Shown: one piece after another, positions 2,968-49,156 of the stretch | Layout: every line of letters starts with the position of its first letter | Position numbering within the stretch: the stretch's first letter is position 1 | Assembly: GCA_903904885.1 (NCBI GenBank) | Contig: CAIVED010000021.1 | Span: 17,456 to 81,455 of the forward strand | DNA: 64,000 nucleotides | From: an uncultured archaeon | Lineage (GTDB): Archaea; Nanobdellota; Nanobdellia; Woesearchaeales; CAIVOO01 | Reading direction: 5' to 3' | The notes under the pieces: model-generated | Databases searched by the model: none | What the model saw: only the letters and a program-made list of their open reading frames with translations | Told to the model about the DNA's origin: nothing | Position numbers and translations under genes: made by a program

Positions 2968-3438
2968 CTATTGCCTTAGAAAATAAACTTTCAGCTTTCC
3001 TGAATAGTTTCCAAGCGGCCTGTCCTCCGGAACCGATGCTATGACCTCAATCTGCTGTGTAATGTTCGGCGGCAGAATAAAGTAATTTTCGCTGGCTGAA
3101 ACCATGTCCCCAGCATTTCCGGAAATATCAATCTTAACGATTACATCAACCGGGTAATGGTGGCTCACTGTTGCGTTTCTTTTTGCAGCCGCTCCCTGGG
3201 GAATCTTGCCGAAATTAAACACACCCGGGTCAACATTCAATCCGATGTTGTTTTTTCCGGAAACCTCCAGGTAAATATCAAATTCCCGGTAATTCAGGAT
3301 CTTGTAGGAAGAGTAAACTATTGAGGTTATTCCTGCAGCGAGCAGGATGCCTATTATCAGAAGTATAACTGCTTTGTAAACTGAGATGCCGCTTTCCTCA
3401 GTTCTAATTCTTTTTTTTTTAGACGTACTCTTCTTCAT
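2968..3438 (-). CDS. N-terminally anchored membrane protein, function unknown
   Basis: 156 aa. A basic N-terminus precedes a TM helix (AVILLIIGILLAAGITSIV), and the remainder is beta-rich. It lies within the surface-protein operon. Confidence 0.5.
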   Translation of the reverse strand: MKKSTSKKKRIRTEESGISVYKAVILLIIGILLAAGITSIVYSSYKILNYREFDIYLEVSGKNNIGLNVDPGVFNFGKIPQGAAAKRNATVSHHYPVDVIVKIDISGNAGDMVSASENYFILPPNITQQIEVIASVPEDRPLGNYSGKLKVYFLRQ

Positions 3439-4645
3439 CTTTGCTCTTCTTTTTCCTCAGGAGTATTATCACGTTTATTATCACCAATATCACAACAATT
3501 ATTATCAGGATGTTTGTGGTTGTAAGGTAGCTCATAAGCGAATTGATTTCAGCAGGTTTTGCTGCCGGCTTTTCCACAGGAGTTTCAGCCTCGTTTTTAA
3601 TCTCTTCTTTGCCCACAAGCTCAATCTGCCCATTCACTGTCTTTGTCTTGGTTGAGCCCCCGCTTGAGAACCTCAAATCAATCTGAAGGTCATAGACCCC
3701 GTTTTCAAGGCTTGCAGCGTCAAGAAACCCTGAAAGATTCTTTTTCTCCCAGGCTTTTAGCAAGGGCGTGGCTGCTGAAAATGTGGTGAGCACGCTGCCA
3801 TTTCTCATTACTTTCGCATCCGCGAAGATGTTGTCTATGTCCTGGTTCCATTTGCTTTCAACTTCAATAAGGAATTTGCTTACAGACCTGCTGGCTGCTT
3901 TTTTTGTATAATTAATAACATCAAGGTCAAAGGTGCCTATCCGGAATGTATCATTGGCAAATGCCTTGCCTGCTCCATAATCGAGGGCTGCATTTGCAAG
4001 ATAAATCCCCTGCTCCGCATTTCCGGTGTTCCATTTTGTCTCAACAACCTTGTTCTCCATAATGCCTGCAGATATGCTGTCTACTGAAACACTTCCTATT
4101 TTCTCGGTTCCTTTGAGTATGTCAATGGTTGCGCTTGCGTTTTCAACAGCCTCTGTTCCCAAATTTGAGACAGTCAGCTTAAGGTTTACATCGCCGCCAA
4201 CTCCCGCGTCTTCGGCGTTTAGCTTCAAACCAAGCATTTTTCCCGGGTACTGGACAAAAAATCTTACAGGAACAACAACCTCTCCCTTTGCCCCCACAGT
4301 TCCGCCGCTTCCCTCAGCCTCTGTTGCGATTACTGAAAATGAGTGCAATCCGGGGCTGCCGATCGAATCGGGCAGCGCAAATACCAAATCAACATATCCC
4401 CTCTCCTGGGGCTTCAGGAGAATTGCATTTTGAGAGGTGATGTTTGCGTAGGCTGCAAGTTCCCCGCCAATGTGCCCTATGATTGTTGTGTCTTTGTCCA
4501 GATTGTTCCTGAAATAGAAATGGGCATCGCCTGAAAGATTCGGCTGGAAAACATAATCTATTGAAGGCGGCGAAACTCCAACAGAAAGGGCAAATGGGAT
4601 TATCGCAAGAAACATAAAAATCAGCAAAACTTTTTTCATATTCAT
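3419..4645 (-). CDS. Secreted surface protein with C-terminal TM anchor and charged tail
   Basis: Signal peptide MKKVLLIFMFLAIIPFALS. The C-terminal TM is NILIIIVVILVIINVIILL, followed by RKKKSKDEEEYV. There is a Lys/Pro/Glu-rich stalk (ETPVEKPAAKPAE). Confidence 0.6.
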   Translation of the reverse strand: MNMKKVLLIFMFLAIIPFALSVGVSPPSIDYVFQPNLSGDAHFYFRNNLDKDTTIIGHIGGELAAYANITSQNAILLKPQERGYVDLVFALPDSIGSPGLHSFSVIATEAEGSGGTVGAKGEVVVPVRFFVQYPGKMLGLKLNAEDAGVGGDVNLKLTVSNLGTEAVENASATIDILKGTEKIGSVSVDSISAGIMENKVVETKWNTGNAEQGIYLANAALDYGAGKAFANDTFRIGTFDLDVINYTKKAASRSVSKFLIEVESKWNQDIDNIFADAKVMRNGSVLTTFSAATPLLKAWEKKNLSGFLDAASLENGVYDLQIDLRFSSGGSTKTKTVNGQIELVGKEEIKNEAETPVEKPAAKPAEINSLMSYLTTTNILIIIVVILVIINVIILLRKKKSKDEEEYV

Positions 4646-4684: not shown

Positions 4685-5311
4685 TTAAACTTTAGAAACA
4701 CTGAAGGTTATTGTTACATTTCTCTGGCCGGGGTTGGCATCATTGGGTATTACAAGCCTTGCAGAGACATTAAAGCTGTCCGCACTTTGCGGGAAATTAA
4801 GCAGGGCGCAGAGACTAAGCGGGGTTTCTGTTGAGTTTGGCACATTGCCGCTGTCATAGCTTGTTACGAATGTTCCAGAGCAGGCTCCCGCCTTTGTGGT
4901 TATCCCCTTTACCTGGAAAAGAGGGCTTGTCCCCCCTATCAGGCCTTTTGCGTTGTTATCGCTGTTTCCAGAGACATTCACGGATATGTTGACTGTCCCG
5001 TCATTTTCAATTGAGACATACTGCGGCAGCGAAGCGCCGTTCCATGTTCCTCCAAGGACCGCAGCGGCCCCGGTTAAATTGCTGTCCAGGGTGGCATTTA
5101 CAGCCGTTGAATTGACCCTGCCGCTCCCAAAGTCGATGCTTCCGGTTATTTTGACAGATACTTCTTCAGTAAGATTAACGCTTGTGGTGGCTGTTCCTGA
5201 GCTGTCAAGGCCCGTTATTGAGGCAATGCCCCTTTCATGGCTGAAGGATATGGCCAATGCCGCTATGGAAATCATCAGTGCGGTTAAGAGAATTGCTTCT
5301 GTTCTGCCCAT
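4685..5311 (-). CDS. Secreted protein, member of a 4-gene family sharing a ~100-aa C-terminal module
   Basis: N-terminal signal-anchor. The C-terminal module YVSIENDGTVNISVN...GGTSPLFQVKG...NSTETPLSLC...NVSARLVIPNDANPG is homologous to the C-termini of the ORFs at 5346-5966, 16284-17813 and 17869-19452. Confidence 0.6.
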   Translation of the reverse strand: MGRTEAILLTALMISIAALAISFSHERGIASITGLDSSGTATTSVNLTEEVSVKITGSIDFGSGRVNSTAVNATLDSNLTGAAAVLGGTWNGASLPQYVSIENDGTVNISVNVSGNSDNNAKGLIGGTSPLFQVKGITTKAGACSGTFVTSYDSGNVPNSTETPLSLCALLNFPQSADSFNVSARLVIPNDANPGQRNVTITFSVSKV

Positions 5312-5345
5312 AAAATAAAAGAAAAATAAAAGAATATAAAAAGGT

Positions 5346-5966
5346 TTACGTTGCCTGAGAAGCGCTGAATGTTATTGTAGCGTTTCTTCCTCCTGCTGCG
5401 GCATCACTAGGGATGACCACTTCTGCAGAAACATTGAACGTATCTGCGCTATTGGTATATTGCAATTTGTCGCAGATAGGGTATGGTGTTTCTGTCGAGT
5501 TTGGAACAGCAGTGTAAGATGTCTGCAGTGTAACGCATGAGTTTGCCTCTGTAGCAATACCCTTCATCTTGAATGATGGGCTTGTCCCCCCTATCAAACC
5601 GTTTGCATTGTTGTTTGCGTTTGCGCTCAGGTTAACTGAAATGTTAACTGTTCCGTCGTTCTCAACCTTTATGTACTGGGTTATTGGTGTCCATGTTCCG
5701 CCGACAACGGTTCCTGCTTGGCTGTCAAGAGTGGAACTTGTGGAAGTGGCATTGACCCTTCCGTTTCCCCAGTCTATGGAACCTGTAACCAGTATTGAAA
5801 CTTCAGACGTTGCGTTGAAGGATACCGGCCCTGTTCCAGTGCCGCCTTTACCAGTTATGTAGGTGATTCCACCTTTGTTTATGCTTAATATCCCTACAAG
5901 AGATATTACGATTGCAACTCCTACAAGAATTGCCAATGTTTTGTTGCTAACATCACTCATCTTCAT
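5346..5966 (-). CDS. Secreted protein, tandem paralog of the 4685-5311 gene
   Basis: The N-terminus (NKTLAILVGVAIVISLVGILS...ITYITGKGGTG) and the C-terminal module (YIKVENDGTVNISVN...GGTSPSFKMKG...NSTETPYPIC...VVIPSDAAAG) are both shared with the neighbouring gene. Confidence 0.6.
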   Translation of the reverse strand: MKMSDVSNKTLAILVGVAIVISLVGILSINKGGITYITGKGGTGTGPVSFNATSEVSILVTGSIDWGNGRVNATSTSSTLDSQAGTVVGGTWTPITQYIKVENDGTVNISVNLSANANNNANGLIGGTSPSFKMKGIATEANSCVTLQTSYTAVPNSTETPYPICDKLQYTNSADTFNVSAEVVIPSDAAAGGRNATITFSASQAT

Positions 5967-5977
5967 TCCCTCCTTTA

Positions 5978-6208
5978 TTATTGTACTTCAAATGTAACCT
6001 GTCCGCTTTTCTGAACCGGTTCAGCAGGCGCATTTGTGCCAATCCCGAAACTTACGTACGACTTTCCTTCTGTGTTGCCTTCCCCGCCCTGAACAACCAC
6101 TGTTGAAGGGGTGCTCAGCATTTTCCAGGTGGCAACAGCTGAAAGAACAATCGCAATAATAAACAACACTGCCAGTGTTTTTTTAGAAATGTCTCCCATC
6201 TTGTTCAC
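5978..6208 (-). CDS. Small secreted/anchored protein (76 aa), possibly pilin-like
   Basis: The N-terminus DISKKTLAVLFIIAIVLSAVA resembles the N-termini of the downstream paralogs. It is the last gene of a 7-gene minus-strand surface cluster. Confidence 0.4.
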   Translation of the reverse strand: MNKMGDISKKTLAVLFIIAIVLSAVATWKMLSTPSTVVVQGGEGNTEGKSYVSFGIGTNAPAEPVQKSGQVTFEVQ

Positions 6209-6323
6209 CTCAAAGCTTTAAACTTCAAAATGTTTATTTTCGGTCATATATAAATGTTGCTGTTTTATTTTTAATTTGATAGTAATATAAACCTCGCATA
6301 GGCCTTCTAAAAAGGCAGATTTA

Positions 6324-6386
6324 CTTACATTGTAGGTAAAAATAAAAATATTTAAATACTAACAAAAATATCTTACATTGTAAGTA
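6324..6386 (+). promoter_or_regulatory. Promoter with paired 15-bp near-palindromic sites (cttacattgtaRgta x2) bracketing the TATA box aatatttaaatac
   Basis: Direct repeat at 6324-6338 and 6372-6386, 48 bp apart. The TATA lies at 6346-6358. The second repeat overlaps the predicted TSS and the ATG of the small HTH gene. Confidence 0.5.
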
Positions 6387-6580
6387 TGAAAATCGAGTCC
6401 ATCCCCCTTGCAGTTCTTTCAGACAGGTCGCTAAGTGTTCTTGAAGCGATTGTTGAGCATCTTCATGATAAGAAATCAATGTCATTCCATGAAATTGCTG
6501 TAAGCCTCAACAGGGATGACCGCACAATCTGGACATGCTATAGCCGGGCAAGGAAAAAGAGGGGGAAGAATGCGAGGTAA
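6386..6580 (+). CDS. Small winged-HTH DNA-binding protein (64 aa)
   Basis: MSFHEIAVSLNRDDRTIW is a helix-turn-helix-like segment, followed by a basic tail RARKKRGKNAR. The gene overlaps the start of the giant surface-protein gene by 11 nt. Confidence 0.45.
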   Translation: MKIESIPLAVLSDRSLSVLEAIVEHLHDKKSMSFHEIAVSLNRDDRTIWTCYSRARKKRGKNAR

Positions 6581-9500
6581 AAATATCATAATTTGCGCAT
6601 TATTTGCAATTCTGCTAATCCTCTCTTTCAAAATTGCAATGTCTGCATCAATTCCCTCGGACTATCTTGCCTACTGGAAATTTGACAATGCAAACGGCAG
6701 CAATTCCACCTTTGCGCCCGATGAAACTTGGAAATTTAATGGAAGCGTATTTGGCGGGGCTGTCAATGGAAGCGCCGGCAGGGTTGGTGAGTCCTATGTT
6801 TTCAATGCGACAAATGGCTACATTAATGCTACCAATTATAACATAACTGCAAACATATCCGCCTTTGCCTGGATGAACACTAAAATCACAAATGCTGCGC
6901 TGCGATATGTTGTGGGAAAGCAGTCAAGCTCATCCTCCGGCTGGTACATTAGGTTGGAAACATCAAACAAGCCGTCATGCACATTCGTGACCGGAGCGGG
7001 GGGAGCTGCAAACACTTCCGCAGTTTTAGCAACAATAGTCCCAACAGTTAATACATGGTATCATGTCGGATGCATTTTCAACGGCACAAACGCAATGATA
7101 TACATAAACGGCGTGCTTAACAACATAACCTCCTGGGCAGGCCCAAAGAATCTCACACCCAACGGGCTTAACATAGCAATGGGAAAATATGCGCTTAATT
7201 CAAACTACTATTGGAACGGCTCAATTGATGAGGTAATAATTTACAACCGTTCCCTTTCGATAGCAGATGCAGGCGGGATATATGATTCCTACTTCGGGTT
7301 TGCGGTAGCCCTTTCCCAACCTGCAAATGACGCAGTATTTTCACAGTCAAAGAACGTGTCACTCAATTTTTCAGTGAGCGGGGACATTAATTCCTACAAC
7401 TGCTCCCTGTCAGTAAACACTGTTTTTAACCAGACAAATAACCTGGTGCAGAATAATACGATAACCGCTTTCAATCTGAATGTGTCATCGGCGGCAACCT
7501 ATTACTGGAATGTTTCCTGCACCAACAGGAGCATAAACAACTTTTCAGAAACGAGAAATTTCACCTTTGAGAAAGTGGCATACCTAAGCTCAAACAATGC
7601 AATAGGATATACGTCTGTTGAGTCCTGTTTTGATGCGATAAACAACACCAATGATGGTTGTGTTTTGGGTGTTAGTAATTATTCAGAAACATTTTCTTCT
7701 CCTAAGTATTATAATTTCTCTCTGGATAATGGTTTTGTTCTCAGTACTTACAGCCAATCCAACGTTTCAATAGATTTCAGTAATATGAGCGCTGATGTTC
7801 TTAGTAATTTCGCTAAAGTTTCTGATAATCAGAGTTTCAGCAATCTTAATATTAGTGGTGTGTCTGTTGAGGGTTTTGAAGCAGGAAACGCTATCGCGTC
7901 TTTGGGTATTGGCTGGAATAATGTTATAATAAGCAATTTTGACTACTGCATCCATAATGACGGAACAGGTTTTCAGACTGCGATAATAAATAACAGCCAG
8001 TTTTCATGCAATCTTTTAAGCTTAAACACCTACTCTCATGACCAGGTTTATAACACCAGAATTTTAAGGGGCGGTTACATACTGTCCAGCTGGGGCAGCC
8101 CGGTAATTTTTGATAATGTCACTTTTCAAAACATTTCCATAAACAGCGGCGTTGGCGTCACTAACATGAATATTACCAATTCCCTGTTTAATTATACTGT
8201 TCTCGGGCAGGCCGTTGGCGATTATGATGCCGTTTCAGGAAACACTTTTGTATGCCCAGCCAATGCCGATGCAATATCAATAAACAGCAATTCAGTAACA
8301 ATCTCAAACAATACATTCCAAAACTGCGGAAACCTGACATACACGTCCCAATACCTGTCAAGCTACAGCCCCATGACCTACGGAGGAAACAACTTCAACA
8401 CGGCCGTAATTTTTGTTTCCTCAAACTTAGGAACAAACAAGGCTGTTTCAGCGGATAATACAGATGTTTCAACCATAGCAGACGGAACAAACAACTTCCG
8501 CCTATGGCTTGTGAACATTCCAGCAGCAAGCATACCATTTTCAACACTCTATGTTGCTGACCCGCCGGCCATGAGCTGCGCAGCAGTAGCAAGCGCCTAC
8601 GGCGGAACGTGCTATTTCGACGAAGCAGACTATTTCGTAGCAAACGGAACAGCAGATTATATCACAAATCCGGCAAGCTCAGCTGCGATAATGCCCGGGT
8701 ACACATCACCTGCATACCTCAAATACAGCGTCCTCGCAAACTACAACGCCGTTCCCTTAAGAAACTCCGGAGCAAACAACAACATCACAGGCAACACTTT
8801 TGCTAGCAATACTGCCCCATTTTTAATAAACGGCACAGGAACAAACCTGTGGTTAAACAGCTTCCAGGACTTCACGCCGATAAACCTATCCGATTACACA
8901 GCTTGCATTAATAGTGAGGGAAATTTCTATCAGGAAAGCCTAGCCACCCTGGCGGGAGACTGCGGCCAGTCAAATGTAACGGTTCCCAATGAAAATCAGA
9001 AGCAAGGCACCCTGTTCAGCCTAGGATGGAAAAAACAGAGCTCAATATTCCTGATTTTTTATGACATCTTCATTAAAAAGATTGACCAGGCATTTGCGCT
9101 TCTTGGAACAACCAATGACACAAACTATACCCTTAACGTTTCCCAGTATGATGTTTACAACTATACCTTGAAGCTGGTTCCCTATATTAATGGGTCAAGA
9201 GTGAATGGAACAAACGTGTTGAGGAATTTTGAGATAGGCTATAACCATGCGCCAAATATAACCTCAATTTTCCTGAACTCAACATCAATTTATAACCGCA
9301 GCACTGACAATCTAACCGCCGCGTACTCTGTGTCTGACTTTGACACGGACAATGTTTCCATTAATTACAACTGGTACAGGAATGGGGCATCGGAAACCGT
9401 CCTGAACATGCCTTTCACCGCACCGGACGCAAACAACCAAACCTATGATTTTTCAGCTTTCTCAAACCCCGGAACGGCCTACAATGGATCAAGATGGAAT

Positions 9501-11684
9501 GCCACCGCCGGGCATGACGGCTTCGGGGCATTTGATTTTGACGGGGTTAATGGTTCCTATATTTATATTTCAAATCCAGTTAGAACTCTCACGGTTAATA
9601 GTTTTGCCATCTCCTTATGGATTAAACCCCAAGGCTTGCAGTCAAGGAGGTGGATATTTGAATGGGGGGACAGCATGTCTGTAATCCAGCCCTGGGTAGG
9701 CTTATTAAAATACTCCAATACAACAGCCGAATGGTTTGTACTTGGGGGTTATAATAACCTTGGAACCATAAACGTTTCCGACGACTCCTGGTACCATCTT
9801 GTAATGGTTTACACTGGCACTTCAGTATCAGGCATATGGAATTCCTATGTCAACGGTGTTCTTAGCCAGGCCGTAGCTGGAAACAGAGCAAACGGATATG
9901 GAGCAGGTCACATTTATATTGGCTCGGGCCTTAACGGGTCTTTCAATGGGACAATTGATGATTTTCGTGTTTACAATAGAAGCCTTTCAGCAAGTGAAGT
10001 GTTTATGCTCTATAACAATGGGCCAAGCACCCTCCATTCCGAGGCCATAAATGTGGGAGATAATTGGTCTGTTAAGGCCACACCCATCGATTTGCAGGGA
10101 TTGAACGGCAGCGGCGTTTTTTCAAACAACATAACCATAAACCAAAATTACCCCCCATCAATATCCTCCATAACCTTGAATTCGACATCAGGCTCTAATC
10201 TTACAACTGACAATCTCACAGCCACTTCCGCAGGGGTCAGCGACCCCGAGGGGGACGCAGTTACGGTTAATTATAATTGGTATAGGAACGGGGTTTCGGA
10301 TGCAGTTGTTAATCTTCCCTTTGCTGCTCCAGATAGCTCAGGCAAAACCCACGATTTTTCCGGCAATGGCAATGACGGACTTGTTACCAGTGGCAATTTC
10401 AGTTCAACAGGCGGCCATGACGGTTTTGGGGCCTTTGAATTTAACGCGGTCATAACTTCAATGATAAACGTAAGTGTCGACCTTGAATCTTCAGACTATA
10501 ACAGCTCAACTGTTTCAGTATGGTTCAATAAAAAAAGCACAAGAGACCAAATGGTATGGTCCGATGAAAAAGGCCGCTTTGACAAATCACTTGAGCTAGA
10601 TTATTTCAATACAGACAATAGAATATGTTTGTATAATGGTACAAGCAGAATTTGCCAGATAATGAATAACCACGGCTGGCTTAATGCGGTTGCTGTTTTT
10701 TACCCGAATAATACTGCTGCATTGTACGTAAATGGCAGCCTTGTTATGACCATCAACACAAAATATAATGTAACCAATACCCTGGGATATACCATCCTTG
10801 GCAAAGATGTAATACACAACAGCCTGCACTTTAATGGAACCATTGATGATTTCCAGGTCTATAACCGGACACTCTCTGCAAATGAGATAATGCTGCTGTA
10901 CCAAAGCCAGGCAAAGCTACATTCAGACGCGTTGTCTGCAGGCGACAATTGGTCGGTAAAAGCAACGCCGATTGATTCCTATGGCCTGAATGGAAGCGGT
11001 GTTTTTTCAAACAACGTGACCATAAACGGCATCACACTTATAATCCCTTCAAGTGCAGCTATACTAATAAACCGAACGCCATTCTTCAACTGGAGCTATG
11101 GCTCGTCTGCAAGCTTTAACCTCCTGGCGGACAATAATTCGGATTTTTCATCTCCGGAAATAAATATAACCACTTCAGATTCAAACTACACCCCAACACA
11201 GGACCTTAATTTTACTGATTATTTCTGGAAGATAGGTGTTTCGGGAAGTTTTACTGAAACAAGAAACTTTACCATTATCAAGAACATTGCCTGCAAACTG
11301 CTGTTAGATTCAATAAACTTTTCAAATATAAACCTAAATGAAGTAAGGAACACAACAAACAGCGCCAATCCCATAATCGTGGAGAATTCAGGCAACCTTA
11401 AGCTCAACATCTCAATAAATTCGACAAGCCTCTGGCAGTATTATCCCAATCCGACAAACTATTACCAGTACAAAATAGGGGCGAACAAGAGCAACGCATT
11501 TGACAGCGCGCTTAACAGCAGCTGGAATAATTTTTCAAGCCAGACGGTCAATTCCATAGCAGGGCTTAAGTATTTTGATGCAAACAACTCAGCAAGAATA
11601 GATGTGCAGGTGGCTGGCCCTCCTGGTGAAGGTGCGGGAGTAAAAAATTCAACAATAGGTGTGTGGTGCGAGGAAGATGAATAA
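6570..11684 (+). CDS. Giant secreted surface glycoprotein (~1,705 aa) with three LamG/concanavalin-like modules and a right-handed beta-helix region
   Basis: The start is set at Met19 of the tracked ORF, where MRGKNIIICALFAILLILSFKIAMSA forms a signal peptide. Three jelly-roll signatures are present: IDEVIIYNRSLSIADAGGIY, IDDFRVYNRSLSASEVFMLY and IDDFQVYNRTLSANEIMLLY. Pectate-lyase-like repeats are NNVIISNFDYCIHNDGTG and ISINSNSVTISNNTFQNCGN. There is a very high density of N-x-S/T sequons. Confidence 0.75.
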   Translation: MRGKNIIICALFAILLILSFKIAMSASIPSDYLAYWKFDNANGSNSTFAPDETWKFNGSVFGGAVNGSAGRVGESYVFNATNGYINATNYNITANISAFAWMNTKITNAALRYVVGKQSSSSSGWYIRLETSNKPSCTFVTGAGGAANTSAVLATIVPTVNTWYHVGCIFNGTNAMIYINGVLNNITSWAGPKNLTPNGLNIAMGKYALNSNYYWNGSIDEVIIYNRSLSIADAGGIYDSYFGFAVALSQPANDAVFSQSKNVSLNFSVSGDINSYNCSLSVNTVFNQTNNLVQNNTITAFNLNVSSAATYYWNVSCTNRSINNFSETRNFTFEKVAYLSSNNAIGYTSVESCFDAINNTNDGCVLGVSNYSETFSSPKYYNFSLDNGFVLSTYSQSNVSIDFSNMSADVLSNFAKVSDNQSFSNLNISGVSVEGFEAGNAIASLGIGWNNVIISNFDYCIHNDGTGFQTAIINNSQFSCNLLSLNTYSHDQVYNTRILRGGYILSSWGSPVIFDNVTFQNISINSGVGVTNMNITNSLFNYTVLGQAVGDYDAVSGNTFVCPANADAISINSNSVTISNNTFQNCGNLTYTSQYLSSYSPMTYGGNNFNTAVIFVSSNLGTNKAVSADNTDVSTIADGTNNFRLWLVNIPAASIPFSTLYVADPPAMSCAAVASAYGGTCYFDEADYFVANGTADYITNPASSAAIMPGYTSPAYLKYSVLANYNAVPLRNSGANNNITGNTFASNTAPFLINGTGTNLWLNSFQDFTPINLSDYTACINSEGNFYQESLATLAGDCGQSNVTVPNENQKQGTLFSLGWKKQSSIFLIFYDIFIKKIDQAFALLGTTNDTNYTLNVSQYDVYNYTLKLVPYINGSRVNGTNVLRNFEIGYNHAPNITSIFLNSTSIYNRSTDNLTAAYSVSDFDTDNVSINYNWYRNGASETVLNMPFTAPDANNQTYDFSAFSNPGTAYNGSRWNATAGHDGFGAFDFDGVNGSYIYISNPVRTLTVNSFAISLWIKPQGLQSRRWIFEWGDSMSVIQPWVGLLKYSNTTAEWFVLGGYNNLGTINVSDDSWYHLVMVYTGTSVSGIWNSYVNGVLSQAVAGNRANGYGAGHIYIGSGLNGSFNGTIDDFRVYNRSLSASEVFMLYNNGPSTLHSEAINVGDNWSVKATPIDLQGLNGSGVFSNNITINQNYPPSISSITLNSTSGSNLTTDNLTATSAGVSDPEGDAVTVNYNWYRNGVSDAVVNLPFAAPDSSGKTHDFSGNGNDGLVTSGNFSSTGGHDGFGAFEFNAVITSMINVSVDLESSDYNSSTVSVWFNKKSTRDQMVWSDEKGRFDKSLELDYFNTDNRICLYNGTSRICQIMNNHGWLNAVAVFYPNNTAALYVNGSLVMTINTKYNVTNTLGYTILGKDVIHNSLHFNGTIDDFQVYNRTLSANEIMLLYQSQAKLHSDALSAGDNWSVKATPIDSYGLNGSGVFSNNVTINGITLIIPSSAAILINRTPFFNWSYGSSASFNLLADNNSDFSSPEINITTSDSNYTPTQDLNFTDYFWKIGVSGSFTETRNFTIIKNIACKLLLDSINFSNINLNEVRNTTNSANPIIVENSGNLKLNISINSTSLWQYYPNPTNYYQYKIGANKSNAFDSALNSSWNNFSSQTVNSIAGLKYFDANNSARIDVQVAGPPGEGAGVKNSTIGVWCEEDE

Positions 11685-12459
11685 ACTGATAATATACTTA
11701 TTGGCAATGATTTTGCTGTTGTCAAATGCGTTTGCAATAGGCATTGGGGGGAAAAATGAGCAGATAACTGCCGAGGGGCAGAAATCAATAGACCTGTTCA
11801 TCACAAACAGCGGCCATGAGGACGCAGTTGTTGATGTGGGGGTTTTAGGGGAAAATGAGGGCGTTTCAGTAAGCCCGGCCAGAATAACAATCAACTCAAC
11901 AGAAGAGATTAAAAAATTTACCGTGTTCCTCGATTTCAGCAGAATCAAAAACTATCCTGTGAAAATCTATGCATCAGAATCCCGGGGGAATGGCGGCCAG
12001 GTTTCAGCAGTGGCAAATGTTGTCTACAGTCTGCAGATAAGCCATTCAAGCAATAGCGTTTCTGAAGATTTCCCGAAAGAAGAGCCAAAAGCCGAGAGCC
12101 CTGCCTTGAATGAAACTGCCAAAGAAATTGGCACTGTGCAGGAAAAATTAGCAATCTCCGAAGAGCCGCCGAAAACAGCAGCTGCTGCAAAGGAGTTTTC
12201 AGGGGCAGCAGCTGCCAAAGAGCAAGCAATTCAGCAATCTGGAGCAAAAACAGGCGATTTGAAAAAAATACTGCTTTACAGCCTGGCTATTGTCATATTC
12301 ATAATTGTTGCAGACATGGTTTACATAAAGAAAAAGCACCCGCTGGAGGAATACATTATTAAATCCAGGAAAATCGGCAAGAATGATGAGGAGATAAAAT
12401 CAAAATTAAGCGAGGCAGGATGGAGCGATTTGATAATTGATTCGCATCTCAAAAAATGA
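11677..12459 (+). CDS. Secreted single-pass membrane protein with conserved cytoplasmic tail motif
   Basis: Signal peptide MNKLIIYLLAMILLLSNAFA, with the start adjusted from the track value of 11659. The C-terminal TM is ILLYSLAIVIFIIVADMV. The tail EEYIIKSRKIGKNDEEIKSKLSEAGWSDLIIDSHLKK matches the tail of the ORF at 58446-59267. Confidence 0.6.
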   Translation: MNKLIIYLLAMILLLSNAFAIGIGGKNEQITAEGQKSIDLFITNSGHEDAVVDVGVLGENEGVSVSPARITINSTEEIKKFTVFLDFSRIKNYPVKIYASESRGNGGQVSAVANVVYSLQISHSSNSVSEDFPKEEPKAESPALNETAKEIGTVQEKLAISEEPPKTAAAAKEFSGAAAAKEQAIQQSGAKTGDLKKILLYSLAIVIFIIVADMVYIKKKHPLEEYIIKSRKIGKNDEEIKSKLSEAGWSDLIIDSHLKK

Positions 12460-13043
12460 CGCACTATTATTCGGCAAAGCAGGAATCACCATTAAGACTG
12501 AAAATGATATCCTCTGTTTTGAGAGGCAAAGAAATCGAGTTTTACACCGGTTCAGGCGTTTTCAGCAAAGACAAGATTGACGACGGCTCCTATGTTCTTA
12601 TTGAGAATGCGATCATTAAGAAAAACTGGAAGATTCTGGATTTGGGCTGCGGTTATGGTGCAGTTGGCATTTCAATCGCAAAATCAGAAAATGCTGATGT
12701 TGTTTTGGCAGATGTCAACGAAAGGGCCGTCCATCTTGCGGAGAAAAACATAGAGCATAATAAGGTAAATGCTTCAGTACGAACATCAGATTTATTCTCA
12801 AGCATTCCTGAGAAATTTGACACCATATTATTGAATCCGCCCCAATCTGCAGGAAAACAATTATGCTTCAGGATGATAGAGGAATCCAAAGAGCATTTAA
12901 ACAAAAACGGCTTGCTTCAATTAGTTGCCCGCCCCAAAAAAGGCGGCAGGACGCTCTCAGAAAAAATGAAGGAAGTTTTCGGAAACGTCGAAGTCATTGC
13001 AAAGAAGCACGGGTTTAGCTTGTATGTGAGCAAGAATAGTTAG
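12456..13043 (+). CDS. Class I SAM-dependent methyltransferase (RsmC/RlmG 'MTS small domain' type)
   Basis: ILDLGCGYGAVGISIA is a Gly-rich SAM motif, VVLADVNERAV is an acidic motif II, and ILLNPP is the N-methylase NPPY-like motif. The start overlaps the upstream gene by 4 nt. Confidence 0.7.
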   Translation: MTHYYSAKQESPLRLKMISSVLRGKEIEFYTGSGVFSKDKIDDGSYVLIENAIIKKNWKILDLGCGYGAVGISIAKSENADVVLADVNERAVHLAEKNIEHNKVNASVRTSDLFSSIPEKFDTILLNPPQSAGKQLCFRMIEESKEHLNKNGLLQLVARPKKGGRTLSEKMKEVFGNVEVIAKKHGFSLYVSKNS

Positions 13044-13917: not shown

Positions 13918-14646
13918 CTAAAATTCGTCTAGGGCCTTCTGGTTTTTTTTGTGCCTCTCAAGGTGTTTCGGAGGTTCAATCTTCCTGTATTCAAATCCCC
14001 AGTCTTCAAGCATTTTCAGTGCATTTGCGCTGATTGCCGGGCAGGCGAGAATCCCGCGAACATTTTTTATTCCCTTCAGCGCCTTTATTTTTTCAACGTA
14101 TCTTCTCAATTGCGTTACCGCATTAAGGTCCCCGTTGAATCTCTTGCATTCCACAACAACCAGATTATTGTCCTTGTCATGGCCGAATACGTCAATGAAT
14201 CCGTATTTTGTGTGCTCCTCCCTGCTCAATGGCCGGAAATCATTGCCTATCAGCCCGGGGTTTTTCATTATCATGTCAGACATGTGCTTTTCTGTTCCCT
14301 GAAGTTCAATTTCCCTGTCATCCTCAAATTTCTGGCAGTGGACAAAATGTATCTTGCTGAATTCTATTTCCATGAACTCTTTCATCGCGGAATTTCTTGC
14401 CTTGAGCAGGATATTTTTTCCGTTTTCTGAAATCTCATGGACAGTTCCCTGCTTCATGTAATTCACAGGCGCGGTTCCCTTAGGCTGGTGCACAATAAGG
14501 CTTTTGTCTGATTTGATTATTACAATCCTGTCGCCTGAAGGAAGAAAGCTTTCAGCCCTGCCTGAGTAGGTTACTTCGCAGTCTGCCCCGATTATTATCA
14601 CATCCCCGGCATCAAGCGCATTTTTTATTTTCCCTGCGTAATCCAT
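13918..14646 (-). CDS. nucS: Endonuclease NucS (EndoMS), mismatch-specific RecB-like nuclease
   Basis: N-terminal MDYAGKIKNALDAGDVIIIGADCEVTYSGRAES and C-terminal GFIDVFGHDKDNNLVVVECKRFNGDLNAVTQLRRY, which is a PD-(D/E)XK D...ExK motif. The size is typical of NucS. The start is adjusted to the internal ATG because the tracked start is GTG. Confidence 0.75.
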   Translation of the reverse strand: MDYAGKIKNALDAGDVIIIGADCEVTYSGRAESFLPSGDRIVIIKSDKSLIVHQPKGTAPVNYMKQGTVHEISENGKNILLKARNSAMKEFMEIEFSKIHFVHCQKFEDDREIELQGTEKHMSDMIMKNPGLIGNDFRPLSREEHTKYGFIDVFGHDKDNNLVVVECKRFNGDLNAVTQLRRYVEKIKALKGIKNVRGILACPAISANALKMLEDWGFEYRKIEPPKHLERHKKNQKALDEF

Positions 14647-14666
14647 GGAAAAACAAAGCACTGCTT

Positions 14667-15482
14667 TTATTTAAACCTTGCACTTCCTCTGAAGCACTCG
14701 TCATAGAAATCGCATTTTCCTGTTCTCCATTTGCAAAGCCCTGATTCCTGTTTTGGGTAGTCATCAATCGCGTTAGACTCTGTTTTCTGGTGTATTCCCT
14801 CTATCTCTTTTATTGCATTTTCAATAAGCTTCTCATCCATTTCAATTATCTGCTCCTTGTCCTTGAGGAACCAGATGCTGAGCTTGTTTGGCATTTTGCC
14901 GTGCTTTTCGCTGTAAAGAAGGGCATAAATCGCAAGCTGCAATTCATAATTGTCTGAAATCTCAAAGCTCCCGCTTGTCTTGTAGTCAAGAACTTTTATT
15001 TCGCCGTCAACATGCTCAACAACATCAATGAAGCCCTTTACCATGTGCTTCTTGCTTTCGTATTCCGCTTCTATCTCAACAGGCCTGAATTTTTTGAATG
15101 CCTCGTTAAAGCTGAGTCCTGTGCTGTCAATCCTGTCAAAGAAATACTGGAGCCAGTTTGCGAGCATCTCTGCTATTTCCTGCTTTGCGCCGATTATTTC
15201 CTTTTCTGTTGCCCTCAGGTCCTCAAACTTCTCAAGGCTCTTCAGCCAGAATGCGTTGAAAAGGTTTTTCATGTAATAGGAAAGCTCCTTTTTGTAATTT
15301 TCCTCCTTGAAATGCTTTATGTCAATGTCAAAGAATTTCTCAAGCACCGAATGGACAATCTTGCCCTTTACCAGGTGGATGTTTTCGCCGGTGGGAAGCC
15401 TGAGGATGTACTGGTAGAAATATTTTCTCGGGCACTGCCGGTAGGTGTTTATGGATGAGGGGGACTGGACTCTTTTCGCCAT
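14667..15482 (-). CDS. Cas4-like PD-(D/E)XK nuclease with N- and C-terminal Cys cluster (putative Fe-S)
   Basis: N-terminal SPSSINTYRQCPRKYFYQYI. The core is IDVVEHVDGEIKVLDYKTS...ELQLAIYALL. The C-terminus is CKWRTGKCDFYDEC. This is the same family as the ORF at 49157-50320. No cas genes are nearby. Confidence 0.65.
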   Translation of the reverse strand: MAKRVQSPSSINTYRQCPRKYFYQYILRLPTGENIHLVKGKIVHSVLEKFFDIDIKHFKEENYKKELSYYMKNLFNAFWLKSLEKFEDLRATEKEIIGAKQEIAEMLANWLQYFFDRIDSTGLSFNEAFKKFRPVEIEAEYESKKHMVKGFIDVVEHVDGEIKVLDYKTSGSFEISDNYELQLAIYALLYSEKHGKMPNKLSIWFLKDKEQIIEMDEKLIENAIKEIEGIHQKTESNAIDDYPKQESGLCKWRTGKCDFYDECFRGSARFK

Positions 15483-41631: not shown

Positions 41632-42481
41632 CATCAGTATATCCAAATATCACTTGATCTAACTGTTCCTCAGCCTCCTGCTTTTTTTCTTCAATCTTAT
41701 CTTTAAGATATTCTTCTATCTCATCTCCATAATAAGTTCTCAAGGATTCTTTGAAGTTTACTAATGAGATATATTTCCACAAACTAGAGAAGAAAATACT
41801 TCTTGTTTTCTCCCATCCAAGAAGCATAGTGGCTCTTGCAAAATCTGTTACCAAATCTAAAGTTTCTTTAGGCACTAATTTGAGAAGCTCTAATGGATCT
41901 ATCTCTTTTCCTGATATTATATCTTCTTTGAACTTGTAGAGTTTATTGTCATATTTTTTATATACTTCTTTTTGCAGATCTATTGGTTCTAATTTACAGT
42001 ACTGTTCTGATTTTTCTTTGATTAGAATTTCATAATCTAGTTTTATTTCACTTTCTTCATTTCCAGAATATATTAACACAGAACAAGGGCCATGCTGATA
42101 CCAGCCAACCGGAAGATTAAGGTTTTTTTCTTTCATTACCTCATAAATTATTTTGTACACATGAGTTTTAGCCGGGTTCTTGCCATAGGCTTCATTACAA
42201 TATTTTCTTATGAGGGCATAGATAGTATGCATTACTTTTTTTTCTTGCTCTCTGATTGGCAAGCTGAAATATGTATCATCAGAATTTTTTAGGGATATCA
42301 ATTTTTCTCTTCCATCATTTTTCACTTCAACAATTCCTCCTTTCTCAAATGCAGAGATATACTGAGAAACCGTTACTCTGTTTATTTTTGATGAATTGCT
42401 TAGCTGTGTTAAGGTCTGTTCTCCTTGTTTTAGAGAATTGATTATGCTGGGGATGATATCTGAAGGTGACTTTCTTTCCAT
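41579..42481 (-). CDS. Hypothetical protein with N-terminal winged-HTH
   Basis: LTQLSNSSKINRVTVSQYISAFEKGGIVEV near the N-terminus. AT-rich gene. 300 aa. Confidence 0.45.
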   Translation of the reverse strand: MERKSPSDIIPSIINSLKQGEQTLTQLSNSSKINRVTVSQYISAFEKGGIVEVKNDGREKLISLKNSDDTYFSLPIREQEKKVMHTIYALIRKYCNEAYGKNPAKTHVYKIIYEVMKEKNLNLPVGWYQHGPCSVLIYSGNEESEIKLDYEILIKEKSEQYCKLEPIDLQKEVYKKYDNKLYKFKEDIISGKEIDPLELLKLVPKETLDLVTDFARATMLLGWEKTRSIFFSSLWKYISLVNFKESLRTYYGDEIEEYLKDKIEEKKQEAEEQLDQVIFGYTDAKYSRDELYQRWVKQKK

Positions 42482-42604
42482 TAGCTGTGATATATGTATT
42501 CTGATATATAAATGTTTTGATTATCATAATGGGATAATATGTTAATTGTAATTTACATATGTTTATAAACATCCTCATATTTATCCGCTTAAAAAAAAGA
42601 TTTT

Positions 42605-42883
42605 GTGAAATATACTAAAATGAGAAAACAAGTTAAAAAATGGGTTGATGGAGATTCGGGCTATTTTGCAGATGGCTCAGGATTTAGACTAGCTCGTGTT
42701 AGGGCTCCGGAGAAATATCAGTTTGGCGGTTCAAGAGCAACAAGAAGAGCAGCAGGAATGACTGCCAGGTCAAATGGCAATGTGAATGTCCAAGTTGTTG
42801 GCAGAAGCTATGGCCGAACAGTGGTTGAGCTGAGCAATTCAGACGGTTCAATCAACAACAGATTAATCCGAAGAGGTTGTTAG
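42605..42883 (+). CDS. Small protein with SNase/thermonuclease-like N-terminal motif (possibly truncated)
   Basis: WVDGDSGYF...RLARVRAPE resembles the SNase DGDT...RL.GIDAPE motif. Only 92 aa. Confidence 0.3.
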   Translation: MKYTKMRKQVKKWVDGDSGYFADGSGFRLARVRAPEKYQFGGSRATRRAAGMTARSNGNVNVQVVGRSYGRTVVELSNSDGSINNRLIRRGC

Positions 42884-43296
42884 AAGAAGGGGAGGTAAAA
42901 ATGAAATATGAATTTTTGATTTGTGCAGTTCTGCTACTTTTTTTAGCAGGGTGCAGTAATGACTATGTGAGTGGAAAGGTTAGCGCAAAGTTAGATTCAA
43001 TAGGCATACAAAACAATGCAGATACAAAACTGACAGTAACCGTGCAGAATACTGGTACACTCCCGTTCGAAGGTACACTGAAAGTTATCCCAGAAGATGG
43101 GGCAGTTACTGCGTCATATCCTAATGATAAGGAACTAACATTTACCCTACAAAAACAAGAACAACAAACTAAAGTATTCACCATACATGGGACCACTAAA
43201 ACCATAAGCACAAATTATTTGATTAAGGTGGTACTAGTAAACAACACAAATGGAATAATTGATCAAACAGAGGTCACATTGACTGTAAACAAATAA
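42877..43296 (+). CDS. Lipoprotein (139 aa)
   Basis: LLLFLAGCSNDY lipobox. Beta-rich mature region. Confidence 0.55.
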   Translation: MLEEGEVKMKYEFLICAVLLLFLAGCSNDYVSGKVSAKLDSIGIQNNADTKLTVTVQNTGTLPFEGTLKVIPEDGAVTASYPNDKELTFTLQKQEQQTKVFTIHGTTKTISTNYLIKVVLVNNTNGIIDQTEVTLTVNK

Positions 43297-43302
43297 AGTA
43301 AA

Positions 43303-43857
43303 ATGAAAAAGACAACGTACATTAAGTTTTTTGCGCCAATAGATAATAATACGGTTCATACGCTGATGACAGTGATAGACCAAAAGATCCTGGAAGGAGT
43401 AAATAAAATAGTTTTAATCATATCTTCTCAGGGAGGCTCAGTTTTTCATGGCATTAGCGCATATAATTATCTTAATGGACTTCCAGTTGAGGTAGAAACC
43501 CATAATTTTGGAAGTGTAGACTCAATCGGAGTTGTTTTGTTCTTGTCTGGGAAAAAAAGATTTGCTGTACCCGACTCAAGGTTCATGATGCACCCAGTTG
43601 TGATGAATTTTGTGAATGGTTCTACATTGGATGAACATGGGCTTAATGAAACTATAAAAGGGCTAAAAATGGATTCACAAAATATAGCGTCCATAATAGC
43701 AAAAAACACTGATAAAAACGTAGAAGACATTAAGAATGAAATTAATAATAGAACAACTTTGAGCGCTTCTGAAGCTAAAGATTTTGGTTTAATTCATGAG
43801 ATTAAGAAAGAATTGATTCCTGTGGGAGCAGATTTAGTGTGCATAAATGTTCCATAA
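43303..43857 (+). CDS. ClpP-like (S14) serine peptidase, phage/defence-type
   Basis: KFFAPIDNNTVHTLMTVIDQ...IISSQGGSVFHGISAYNYL...KKRFAVPDSRFMMHPV parallels ClpP IYLFGPIDD...INSPGGSV...GKRFALPNSRIMIHQP. Confidence 0.6.
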   Translation: MKKTTYIKFFAPIDNNTVHTLMTVIDQKILEGVNKIVLIISSQGGSVFHGISAYNYLNGLPVEVETHNFGSVDSIGVVLFLSGKKRFAVPDSRFMMHPVVMNFVNGSTLDEHGLNETIKGLKMDSQNIASIIAKNTDKNVEDIKNEINNRTTLSASEAKDFGLIHEIKKELIPVGADLVCINVP

Positions 43858-43864
43858 ATAAAAT

Positions 43865-46758: not shown

Positions 46759-46760
46759 TT

Positions 46761-49085: not shown

Positions 49086-49156
49086 TTTATTGGTCTAATA
49101 ACTATTAATTTTATAAAGATTATCTTTGCCTTAGTTAGCCATTCCCCACAATCCTT

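What the first reader, a model, noticed from the sequence alone, without database searches (positions are those of the whole stretch)
6324..6580. Small HTH gene overlapping the giant glycoprotein gene, with paired near-palindromic operator sites bracketing the TATA box
The sequence cttacattgtaRgta occurs twice, at 6324-6338 and 6372-6386, on either side of aatatttaaatac. The second copy overlaps the predicted TSS and the ATG of a 64-aa HTH-like ORF. That ORF's stop overlaps the signal-peptide Met of the 1,705-aa surface glycoprotein. The arrangement suggests an autoregulated regulator and giant adhesin/S-layer operon.
Basis: seen in the sequence. Interest (0 to 1): 0.55.

Follow-up and report, generated by a model that had tools for sequence, protein, structure and literature searches.

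The report
Conserved DPANN regulator, operator and giant gene
A 64-residue DNA-binding protein, its two palindromic binding sites around its own promoter, and the giant sugar-coated surface-protein gene it overlaps form a unit that recurs across tiny symbiotic (DPANN) archaea. This gives a directly testable handle on gene regulation in these uncultured organisms.

Summary
Two copies of the palindrome TACTTACAWTGTAAGTA (6322-6338, 6370-6386) bracket a TATA box (6351-6358). The proximal copy ends on the A of the ATG of a 64-aa ORF (6386-6580), and that ORF's stop overlaps the start of a 1704-aa secreted LamG glycoprotein by 11 nt.

The ORF belongs to a large uncurated family: about 1950 clusters at 50% identity, with an invariant RDDRTIWT motif. 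Its predicted fold resembles sigma-70 region 4 and LuxR-type HTH domains. Genome records carrying it are mostly labelled Woesearchaeota or Nanoarchaeota.

- In 80 related loci the exact 17-mer is 344-fold enriched within 500 nt upstream of family genes.
- 56 of 80 loci have a giant ORF abutting the HTH gene.
- Five syntenic orthologous promoters conserve only the two palindromes, the TATA boxes and the divergent gene's ribosome-binding site.
- Proteins built only of canonical modules have palindromic sites. Proteins that pair a divergent module with a canonical one have asymmetric sites that share one half-site.

Best reading: a dimeric HTH regulator that binds these operators and autoregulates the HTH-giant operon, probably by repression at the transcription start. 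It may also control the divergent TasA-like fibre operon. Binding and the direction of regulation are untested.

The parts
6322..6338 (.). Distal operator TACTTACATTGTAGGTA. It has one mismatch to the 17-bp palindrome consensus and its centre lies about 24 nt upstream of the TATA centre.
   Evidence: Consensus logo from 153 sites. It is an invariant block in the alignment of five orthologous promoters.
6351..6358 (+). TATA box TTTAAATA of the HTH-giant operon, preceded by the A-rich stretch 6339-6350 (BRE-like).
   Evidence: Conserved as TTTAAA(T/A)(A/G) in all orthologous promoters. A TATA-like box upstream of sites is general.
6370..6386 (.). Proximal operator ATCTTACATTGTAAGTA. Its last base is the A of the ATG, and it covers the predicted transcription start (about 6380-6386).
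   Evidence: In all five orthologues the site is fused to the ATG as ...GTATG. The transcription start is inferred from the TATA position only.
6386..6580 (+). 64-aa tetrahelical HTH protein (sigma-70 region 4 / LuxR-like fold) of the RDDRTIWT family. The mRNA is probably leaderless.
   Evidence: Homologues. Pfam Sigma70_r4_2 scores 17.4 bits, below the cut-off. AlphaFold2 pLDDT 88.7. Foldseek TM-score 0.66-0.75 to sigma region 4 domains. Public gene calls agree.
6559..6565 (+). Shine-Dalgarno-like GAGGGGG, 4 nt before the giant gene's ATG and inside the HTH codons for KKRG. This suggests translational coupling.
   Evidence: read directly from the sequence. Stop/start overlap is typical of the other loci.
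6570..11684 (+). 1704-aa secreted protein with a signal peptide, three LamG (Laminin_G_3) domains and 97 N-X-S/T sequons (about 43 expected). Its C-terminal ~100 aa are tentatively related to the fibre-subunit family encoded in the divergent operon.
   Evidence: Homologous giant ORFs occur next to HTH genes in other loci (43 subject proteins). hhalign E = 1.4e-4, probability 53%.
11677..12459 (+). 260-aa protein with N- and C-terminal hydrophobic segments. Its start overlaps the giant gene's stop by 8 nt, so it is probably in the same operon.
12456..13043 (+). 195-aa MTS-type methyltransferase, overlapping the previous gene by 4 nt. It recurs near HTH genes elsewhere.
   Evidence: Pfam MTS E = 2.6e-43. 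Homologues (50% identity) directly after or overlapping HTH genes in L058 and L077, and one gene further on in L032; in the same operon in L207.
5978..6199 (-). 73-aa secreted or membrane protein, first gene of the divergent operon. Its ribosome-binding site (reverse complement of 6200-6212) and TATA box (reverse complement of 6246-6253) are conserved.
   Evidence: In L187 a homologue lies downstream of two such sites with no HTH gene between them.
4685..5966 (-). Two paralogous ~206-aa proteins (5346-5966 and 4685-5311), each an N-terminal hydrophobic helix followed by a beta-sandwich. The fold is closest to TasA-like and cannulae-type fibre subunits.
3419..4645 (-). 408-aa CARDB-like protein with a C-terminal membrane anchor. 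It belongs to the ~390-426-aa family that follows HTH genes in mid-operon loci.
   Evidence: Pfam CARDB E = 0.0012. 31 homologues in the related loci.

Best explanation
The 64-aa protein is a stand-alone tetrahelical HTH with a sigma-70 region 4 / LuxR-like fold. It most likely binds as a dimer to the 17-bp palindrome TACTTACAWTGTAAGTA, with one module reading one TACTTACA half-site.

In the window, one site covers the predicted transcription start and ends on the ATG of the regulator's own, probably leaderless, gene. The second site lies 48 bp upstream, just beyond the BRE/TATA. The regulator is co-transcribed and probably translationally coupled with a 1704-aa secreted LamG glycoprotein, through an 11-nt overlap with the Shine-Dalgarno-like sequence inside the regulator's last codons.

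Occupancy of the proximal site should block RNA polymerase recruitment or promoter opening after TBP/TFB have bound. That would give negative feedback on the regulator-giant operon. The distal site could stabilise repression cooperatively, or act as an upstream activating site for this promoter and for the divergent fibre-subunit operon.

Shown here: the sites, their conservation and positions, the family, the fold, the gene linkage, and the match between protein architecture and site symmetry. Inferred: DNA binding, dimerisation, the transcription start, and the direction of regulation.
For: - Site conservation: logo from 153 sites in 48 loci. The flanking T-A-C / G-T-A bases were not part of the search pattern yet are 86-99% conserved.
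- Enrichment: the exact 17-mer is 344-fold enriched within 500 nt upstream of family genes, p = 5e-85.
- Operon position: HTH genes at the head of an operon carry sites in 44 of 57 cases. HTH genes in mid-operon carry them in 1 of 23 (Fisher p = 1e-9).
- Phylogenetic footprint: in five syntenic orthologues only the two sites, the TATA boxes and the divergent gene's ribosome-binding site are conserved, and the ATG is fused to the proximal site in every one.
- Covariation: proteins with only canonical modules have ACTTACA followed by the palindromic half in 100 of 117 cases. Nine proteins with a divergent N-terminal module plus a canonical module have 0 palindromic and 24 of 24 asymmetric TACTTACAnnATAT-type sites.
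- Fixed geometry: the TATA-like centre peaks at -18.5/-17.5 from the site centre, which places the site between the TATA box and the transcription start.
- Fold: pLDDT 88.7, four helices, best structural matches are sigma region 4 domains (some solved on -35 DNA) and RcsB.
- Reverse test: a scan of metagenomes for the 17-mer found a family gene 150-400 nt downstream in 28 of 89 loci where this could be judged.
- Linkage: a giant ORF abuts the HTH gene in 56 of 80 loci.
Against: - There is no experimental evidence for binding, for the transcription start or for the regulatory outcome.
- In the window the TATA centre lies -23.5 from the proximal site centre, not at the -18 mode. The exact overlap with the transcription start is therefore uncertain.
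- At other promoters (rio1, gyrA, aminoacyl-tRNA synthetase/RFC, the w76-like gene) the sites lie upstream of the TATA box. This is a position more typical of activation, so the protein may be mainly an activator or dual-function.
- The 48-bp spacing shows no clear helical phasing.
- 13 operon-head genes lack canonical sites. Most of these belong to the asymmetric-site subfamily, but L057 showed no sites at all.
Confidence: 0.62

Rival explanations
1. The same protein and the same sites, but the main role is activation or dual regulation. Bound at the distal site, upstream of BRE/TATA, the protein recruits TBP/TFB to this promoter and to the divergent fibre operon. The proximal site only tempers expression.
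For: At rio1 (L029, L082), gyrA (L093, L160), aminoacyl-tRNA synthetase/RFC (L101, L148) and a w76-like gene (L187), the sites lie 16-110 nt upstream of the TATA box. The distal site in the window sits immediately upstream of the BRE/TATA. Tandem [TATA + site] arrays mean each site is also upstream of the next TATA box.
Against: In the family's own promoters the commonest geometry puts the site directly between the TATA box and the start, and fused to the ATG in the window's orthologous group. That position is normally repressive in archaea (established knowledge for MDR1, LrpA and Phr; from memory).
Confidence: 0.25
2. The palindrome is a promoter or initiator element read by another factor, such as a basal factor paralogue. 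The HTH gene merely lies downstream of a common strong promoter type.
For: Sites also occur at some housekeeping promoters. No binding data exist.
Against: Site symmetry tracks the module composition of the adjacent protein: 0 of 24 sites are palindromic for mixed-module proteins against 100 of 117 for canonical ones. Sites are 344-fold concentrated upstream of family genes. The 64-kb window has only the two copies, although it holds many other promoters.
Confidence: 0.07
3. The modules mainly tether DNA to the membrane or to the secretion site of the giant protein, a structural or transertion-like role, rather than regulate transcription.
For: Some relatives are fused through a membrane helix and a poly-basic stretch to the C-terminus of giant or glycosylated ectodomain proteins.
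Against: The window's protein is a free 64-aa domain. The window's giant protein has no C-terminal membrane helix. The site positions are tied to the TATA box and the start.
Confidence: 0.04
4. The palindromes act as RNA hairpins in the 5' region of the transcript, affecting stability or translation.
For: The distal copy and the consensus fold better than shuffled controls (-6.4 and -5.3 kcal/mol, z = -3.9).
Against: The proximal copy folds weakly (-2.1 kcal/mol, z = -0.9) and would be largely untranscribed if the start is at 6380-6386. Conservation is at the level of sequence rather than of base pairing. The asymmetric-site subfamily cannot form the hairpin at all.
Confidence: 0.02

Closest known systems
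Sigma-70 region 4 / ECF sigma domain 4 (Pfam PF08281, PF04545)
   Same: The same four-helix HTH fold. The best Foldseek matches are SigR, SigH, SigD, SigE and SigW region 4, some solved on -35 DNA. There are weak Pfam and NCBIfam sequence hits. Public annotations call some relatives 'sigma-70 region 4 domain-containing protein' or 'sigma24 family'.
   Different: It has no region 2 or other sigma domains and is only 64 aa. It occurs in archaea, which use TBP/TFB. It reads a palindrome at the transcription start rather than a -35 element. It also occurs as 2-4 tandem modules. It is not a sigma factor.
Stand-alone LuxR/FixJ-type HTH proteins such as GerE (74 aa) and the RcsB DNA-binding domain
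   Same: A small tetrahelical HTH that works as a dimer on inverted repeats (established knowledge, from memory). RcsB-DNA structures are among the fold matches, with 30-36% identity over 45-64 columns.
   Different: There is no Pfam GerE hit. The organism is archaeal. The conserved recognition motif RDDRTIWT is specific to this family.
Archaeal repressors that bind between the TATA box and the transcription start (MDR1, LrpA, Phr, NrpR; from memory)
   Same: The operator overlaps the predicted transcription start downstream of the TATA box, the regulator sits at its own promoter, and the operator is palindromic.
   Different: Those proteins belong to the DtxR, Lrp/AsnC, winged-helix and other families. 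This protein has a sigma region 4-like HTH, and its promoters often carry tandem [TATA + operator] units with up to about 10 sites.
Tfx of Methanothermobacter, an archaeal regulator with a sigma region 4 / LuxR-like N-terminal HTH (from memory; domain listed in PMC5413776)
   Same: An archaeal DNA-binding protein whose HTH is of the sigma region 4 / LuxR type.
   Different: Tfx carries a C-terminal TFX_C domain, which is not detected here. The target sites, gene context and lineage all differ.
'Sigma-70' genes reported as prevalent in Woesearchaeota (fam00359; Castelle et al. 2021, PMC8204110)
   Same: That paper reports sigma-70-classified genes in Woesearchaeota that have no anti-sigma partner and no clear role. 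This is very probably the same family, given its Pfam label and lineage.
   Different: Identity with fam00359 could not be verified, because the supplementary tables are not held. No operator, giant-gene linkage or multi-module architecture was described there.

Membership tests
Sigma-70 family sigma factor | Sequence match to region 4 at Pfam's gathering score | tested here: not met
   PF08281 scores 17.4 bits against a 25.7 cut-off, E = 0.0034. About a quarter of the homologues carry a precomputed PF08281 hit.
Sigma-70 family sigma factor | Region 4 fold (four-helix HTH) | tested here: met
   AlphaFold2 pLDDT 88.7. Foldseek TM-score 0.66-0.75 to ECF sigma region 4 domains, although E-values are only 0.05-0.5.
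Sigma-70 family sigma factor | Presence of region 2 (core RNA polymerase binding and -10 recognition) | tested here: not met
   The protein is 64 aa, a single domain. Multi-module relatives repeat only the region 4-like module.
LuxR/FixJ/GerE-type HTH (PF00196) | Sequence match to the GerE profile | tested here: not met
   No PF00196 hit at E <= 1.
LuxR/FixJ/GerE-type HTH (PF00196) | Dimer binding to an inverted repeat | not testable with these tools
   Supported only indirectly, by the 17-bp palindrome and by the covariation between modules and half-sites.
Autoregulated archaeal repressor acting at the TATA-to-start region | Operator lies between the TATA box and the transcription start of its own gene | tested here: inconclusive
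   The position relative to the TATA box and the ATG is shown and conserved. The transcription start itself is only predicted.
Autoregulated archaeal repressor acting at the TATA-to-start region | The protein lowers transcription of its own promoter | not testable with these tools
   This needs in vitro transcription or in vivo data.
RDDRTIWT small-HTH family of DPANN archaea (uncurated; defined here) | Module ...IP..IF.DR.LSVLEAIVEYLK....L.FHEIA.LLNRDDRTIWT.Y.RAKKK with invariant R-D-D-R-T-I-W-T | tested here: met
   Alignment A1: 15 invariant columns, all present in the window protein. 186 hits with E <= 0.01. 1950 clusters at 50% identity.
RDDRTIWT small-HTH family of DPANN archaea (uncurated; defined here) | TACTTACAWTGTAAGTA sites upstream when the gene heads an operon | tested here: met
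   Two sites in the window. 44 of 57 operon-head genes in related loci have sites.
RDDRTIWT small-HTH family of DPANN archaea (uncurated; defined here) | The gene abuts a giant secreted-protein gene | tested here: met
   11-nt overlap with the 1704-aa LamG protein. 56 of 80 loci show the same linkage.
Tfx family | C-terminal TFX_C domain | tested here: not met
   No such Pfam hit, and the protein ends after the HTH.

The most novel reading that the evidence does not exclude
The RDDRTIWT modules are the DNA-binding output of a DPANN-specific link between cell surface and genome. In some lineages two to four modules are covalently joined, through a membrane helix and a poly-basic stretch, to the cytoplasmic end of giant two-pass surface proteins. 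In the window's lineage the module is free but translationally coupled to the giant protein.

The phylum-wide operator would then mark a regulon joining giant adhesins and TasA-like fibres to a few core operons (rio1-top6, gyrA). Host contact, or giant-protein export, would feed back on transcription by release or sequestration of the modules.
Probability: 0.12. Interest if true: 0.85.

Novelty: new variant of a known kind. Interest (0 to 1): 0.68.

Why it matters
Almost nothing is known about gene regulation in DPANN archaea, and none of the lineages carrying this family is in culture. This work supplies several things that can be tested directly with a 64-residue protein and a 100-bp DNA fragment:

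- a very conserved, abundant regulator family;
- its likely 17-bp operator;
- a rule that each module reads one half-site;
- a defined target, namely the giant glycosylated lectin-like proteins and fibre subunits most likely to mediate host attachment.

It also offers an explanation for the 'sigma-70 genes without anti-sigma factors' reported in Woesearchaeota. These would be stand-alone region 4-like transcription factors, not sigma factors.

Tried and rejected
- **Chance repeat or spurious ORF:** rejected.
- **Viral or mobile origin:** no relatives in IMG/VR, and PHROGs hits are only marginal.
- **Curated family membership:** nothing reaches threshold in Pfam, NCBIfam or PHROGs. No relative by sequence in the PDB.
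- **Other family members or sites in the window:** none. The 1-mismatch site at 61482 looks like chance.
- **Literature:** searches for the motif and the family found nothing specific. Several papers contain the 11-mer in unrelated contexts.
- **A faulty regex of mine:** my first scan of the metagenome loci returned 0 of 120 because the motif pattern had one position too many. The corrected scan gave 28 of 120.
- **Promoters of the fused ectodomain-HTH genes:** L201 and L202 hold no canonical sites, and the genes are cut or preceded by another ORF, so their promoters were not reached.
- **Identity with fam00359 of PMC8204110:** could not be checked.
- **The window contig itself:** the contigs carrying the identical protein had no DNA file.
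- **The sigma-70 promoter scanner:** not used, because the promoters are archaeal.

Full report
**Observation.**

CTTACATTGTAGGTA lies at 6324-6338 and CTTACATTGTAAGTA at 6372-6386, on either side of tttaaata (6351-6358). The ATG at 6386 opens a 64-aa ORF that ends at 6580. The ATG at 6570, preceded by GAGGGGG (6559-6565), opens a 1704-aa ORF, so the two genes overlap by 11 nt.

No other close copy of the 15-mer exists in the 64-kb window. Public gene calls on five other contigs carrying the same locus give the same 64-aa gene and 73-aa divergent gene; the contig with the complete giant gene gives the same 1704 aa.

**The small ORF is a real and widespread gene.**

- A word-indexed search found 186 relatives at 52-83% identity, nearly all 62-110 aa.
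- The alignment has 15 invariant columns, including R-D-D-R-T-I-W-T.
- An exhaustive phmmer search found 1950 clusters at 50% identity with E <= 1e-3.
- Species-representative genomes hold 226 loci. Most are labelled Woesearchaeota, Nanoarchaeota or Nanoarchaeia. One series of third-party assemblies is labelled 'Methanosarcinales', yet one of its members is a 774-kb chromosome. At least seven assemblies contribute two of the 80 fetched loci each.
- No curated family reaches its threshold. Pfam Sigma70_r4_2 scores 17.4 bits against a 25.7 cut-off, and NCBIfam and PHROGs give only marginal sigma-like hits.
- The PDB has no relative by sequence, and IMG/VR has none.
- AlphaFold2 gives a confident four-helix domain with pLDDT 88.7. 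Its best structural matches are ECF sigma region 4 domains, some solved on -35 DNA, and the LuxR-type domain of RcsB. TM-scores are 0.66-0.75, though E-values are weak, as expected for about 60 residues.
- Some sources name relatives 'sigma-70 region 4 domain-containing protein' or 'sigma24 family'. Castelle et al. 2021 noted unexplained 'sigma-70' genes in Woesearchaeota (PMC8204110). These are very likely this family, but I could not verify it.

**The palindrome is a conserved site tied to this family.**

In 80 related loci (869 kb), TTACANTGTAA with at most one mismatch occurs 153 times within 500 nt upstream of family modules and 59 times elsewhere. The exact 17-mer TACTTACAWTGTAAGTA occurs 68 times against 4, a 344-fold enrichment (p = 5e-85).

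The logo from 153 sites is a perfect 17-bp palindrome. Its outer T-A-C / G-T-A bases were not in the search pattern yet are 86-99% conserved. Sites come in arrays of 2 to about 10 copies, most often 42-46 bp apart.

A TATA-like box peaks 17.5-18.5 nt upstream of the site centre. Many loci therefore carry tandem [TATA + site] units.

HTH genes at the head of an operon have sites in 44 of 57 cases. Those that directly follow another same-strand gene have sites in 1 of 23 (Fisher p = 1e-9).

The reverse test agrees. Of these, 28 have a canonical family gene 150-400 nt downstream, and L083 has a divergent member. Another 31 lie too close to a contig end to judge, and 23 lie inside long ORFs and look like chance matches.

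**Orthologous promoters.**

Four close homologues (64-77% identity) gave five loci (two of them carrying the same protein), all with the window's synteny: ~405, ~202, ~204 and ~73 aa genes on one strand, and the HTH and a LamG giant on the other. In the alignment of the intergenic regions, only five blocks are conserved:

- the ribosome-binding site and start of the divergent gene;
- the divergent gene's TATA box;
- the distal TACTTACAWTGTAAGTA;
- the TTTAAA TATA box;
- the proximal TCTTACAWTGTARGTATG, with the ATG fused to the site in every case.

The TATA centre lies 28-32 nt before the ATG. The transcript is therefore probably leaderless, or has only a few untranslated nucleotides. This is an inference; no 5'-end data exist.

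**Evidence that the protein reads the site.**

The family occurs as one module, as two canonical modules, or as a divergent N-terminal module (...RNEIALAVTY...) followed by a canonical one.

| Protein architecture | ACTTACA followed by palindromic half | Followed by nnATAT-type half |
|---|---|---|
| Canonical modules only | 100 of 117 | 3 of 117 |
| Divergent plus canonical (9 proteins) | 0 of 24 | 24 of 24 |

One half-site therefore tracks the canonical module and the other half tracks the partner module. This is what a one-module, one-half-site reader predicts, and it argues against an unrelated factor.

RNA hairpins formed by the sites are weak (-2.1 to -6.4 kcal/mol). The asymmetric sites cannot form them at all.

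**What is regulated.**

The giant protein has a signal peptide, three Laminin_G_3 domains (E = 2e-47), 97 N-X-S/T sequons against about 43 expected, and no C-terminal anchor.

Giant ORFs abut HTH genes in 56 of 80 loci. Either they lie downstream, typically with a 4-nt overlap, or they lie upstream, in which case a ~390-426-aa gene follows the HTH. Homologues of the window's giant protein and of its 408-aa, ~206-aa and 73-aa proteins recur in those loci. The HTH thus belongs to a conserved cluster.

A fibre with a giant lectin-like component therefore fits better than an S-layer. This rests on moderate structural scores.

**Mechanism.**

The proximal site spans roughly -11 to +6 of the predicted start. 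Archaeal repressors bound at that position let TBP/TFB bind but exclude RNA polymerase (established knowledge for MDR1, LrpA and Phr; from memory). Because the regulator is the first cistron and is coupled to the giant gene, this gives negative feedback on the operon.

The distal site lies just upstream of the BRE/TATA. It is also about 80 nt from the divergent operon's TATA box. At rio1 (L024, L029, L082), gyrA (L093, L160), aminoacyl-tRNA synthetase/RFC (L101, L148) and a w76-like gene (L187), sites lie upstream of the TATA box. A dual repressor-activator role and a wider regulon are therefore plausible.

My estimates are about 0.8 that the protein binds these sites, about 0.6 that the net effect on its own promoter is repression, and about 0.25 that activation or dual control dominates.

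**Relatives with other architectures.**

Many family members have two, three or four modules. At least eleven 50% clusters are proteins of 779-5919 aa that end in a hydrophobic helix, an RRKKKK stretch and four modules; the complete ones show an N-terminal membrane helix before a huge ectodomain. Smaller proteins (448-487 aa) show a glycosylated ectodomain, a membrane helix, a KRRKKKK-like stretch, a linker and two modules.

These fusions tie the module functionally to giant surface proteins, and they raise the speculative reading given under the novel case. I did not reach their promoters.

**Novelty and verdict.**

An autoregulated HTH with a palindromic operator is a known kind of system. 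What is new is the combination:

- an uncurated, very conserved, DPANN-wide family with a sigma region 4-like fold acting as a stand-alone factor in archaea;
- a phylum-wide operator;
- tandem TATA-operator arrays;
- multi-module and membrane-fused versions;
- systematic linkage to giant surface-protein and fibre clusters.

I found no description of the operator or of the linkage in the searchable literature. That library is incomplete, so this is not proof of absence.

The caveats are that regulation is inferred and that 'S-layer' is not supported.

Noticed in passing
Proteins P0127, P0140, P0153, P0163, P0165, P0186, P0171, P0173, P0129, P0133, P0150; also P0272, P0287, P0295, P0301 (loci L201, L202): Giant proteins (779-5919 aa) carry four HTH modules of this family after a C-terminal hydrophobic helix and an RRKKKK stretch; the complete ones also show an N-terminal membrane helix. 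Smaller proteins have a glycosylated ectodomain, a membrane helix, a linker and two modules. These are membrane-tethered DNA-binding arrays.
   Followed up: partly
L024:1473-1509, L029:1112-1495, L082:5160-5176; L093:2153-2169, L160:594-610; L101:8201-8217, L148:1072-1088: The same 17-bp palindrome, in arrays of up to seven copies, lies upstream of housekeeping operons in DPANN-like contigs. These include rio1-KH-top6B-top6A (three genomes), gyrA (two), and aminoacyl-tRNA synthetase/RFC (two). In these cases the sites usually lie upstream of the TATA box.
   Followed up: partly
L119, L139, L151, L169 (AbrB/SpoVT-type antitoxin genes); L085, L110 (TetR-type divergent promoters): The identical 17-mer TACTTACAWTGTAAGTA sits 10-60 nt upstream of unrelated regulator genes in mostly higher-GC (49-71%), bacterial-looking contigs. 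This appears to be independent reuse of the same palindrome as an operator.
   Followed up: no
[not shown]
   Followed up: partly
window 12456-13043 (+); L058:3890-4495, L077:7132-7827, L032:7753-8373, L207:6973-7557: An MTS-type methyltransferase (195 aa) recurs immediately or closely downstream of HTH genes, with about 50% identity between genomes. Its role in the cluster is unexplained.
   Followed up: no
L016:6486-6703, L025:5013-5182, L024:6364-6689, L029:6274-6681, L055:6871-6970, L174:1851-2176: Whole promoter units (TATA box plus palindrome) are tandemly duplicated up to about 10 times, with unit lengths of 36-69 bp. In L020 a run of N interrupts such an array, which suggests these arrays break assemblies.
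   Followed up: partly
window 42000-50000: GC content falls to 0.32-0.35, against about 0.42-0.45 elsewhere, over a block of minus-strand genes (43865-50320). This may be an island.
   Followed up: no
window 13918-15482 (-): A NucS endonuclease gene is followed by a PD-(D/E)XK / Cas4-like nuclease gene, next to the HTH-giant operon.
   Followed up: no
L007 and other loci: Many of the fetched records are titled 'uncultured Methanosarcinales archaeon', yet one is a complete 774-kb chromosome with DPANN-like gene content. The label looks unreliable.
   Followed up: no
L003, L007, L093 and others (for example tacCTACATTGTAGgta): Some sites carry symmetric C/G substitutions at positions -5 and +5 (CCTACAWTGTAGG). 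This is a possible second operator class that may match variation in the recognition helix.
   Followed up: no
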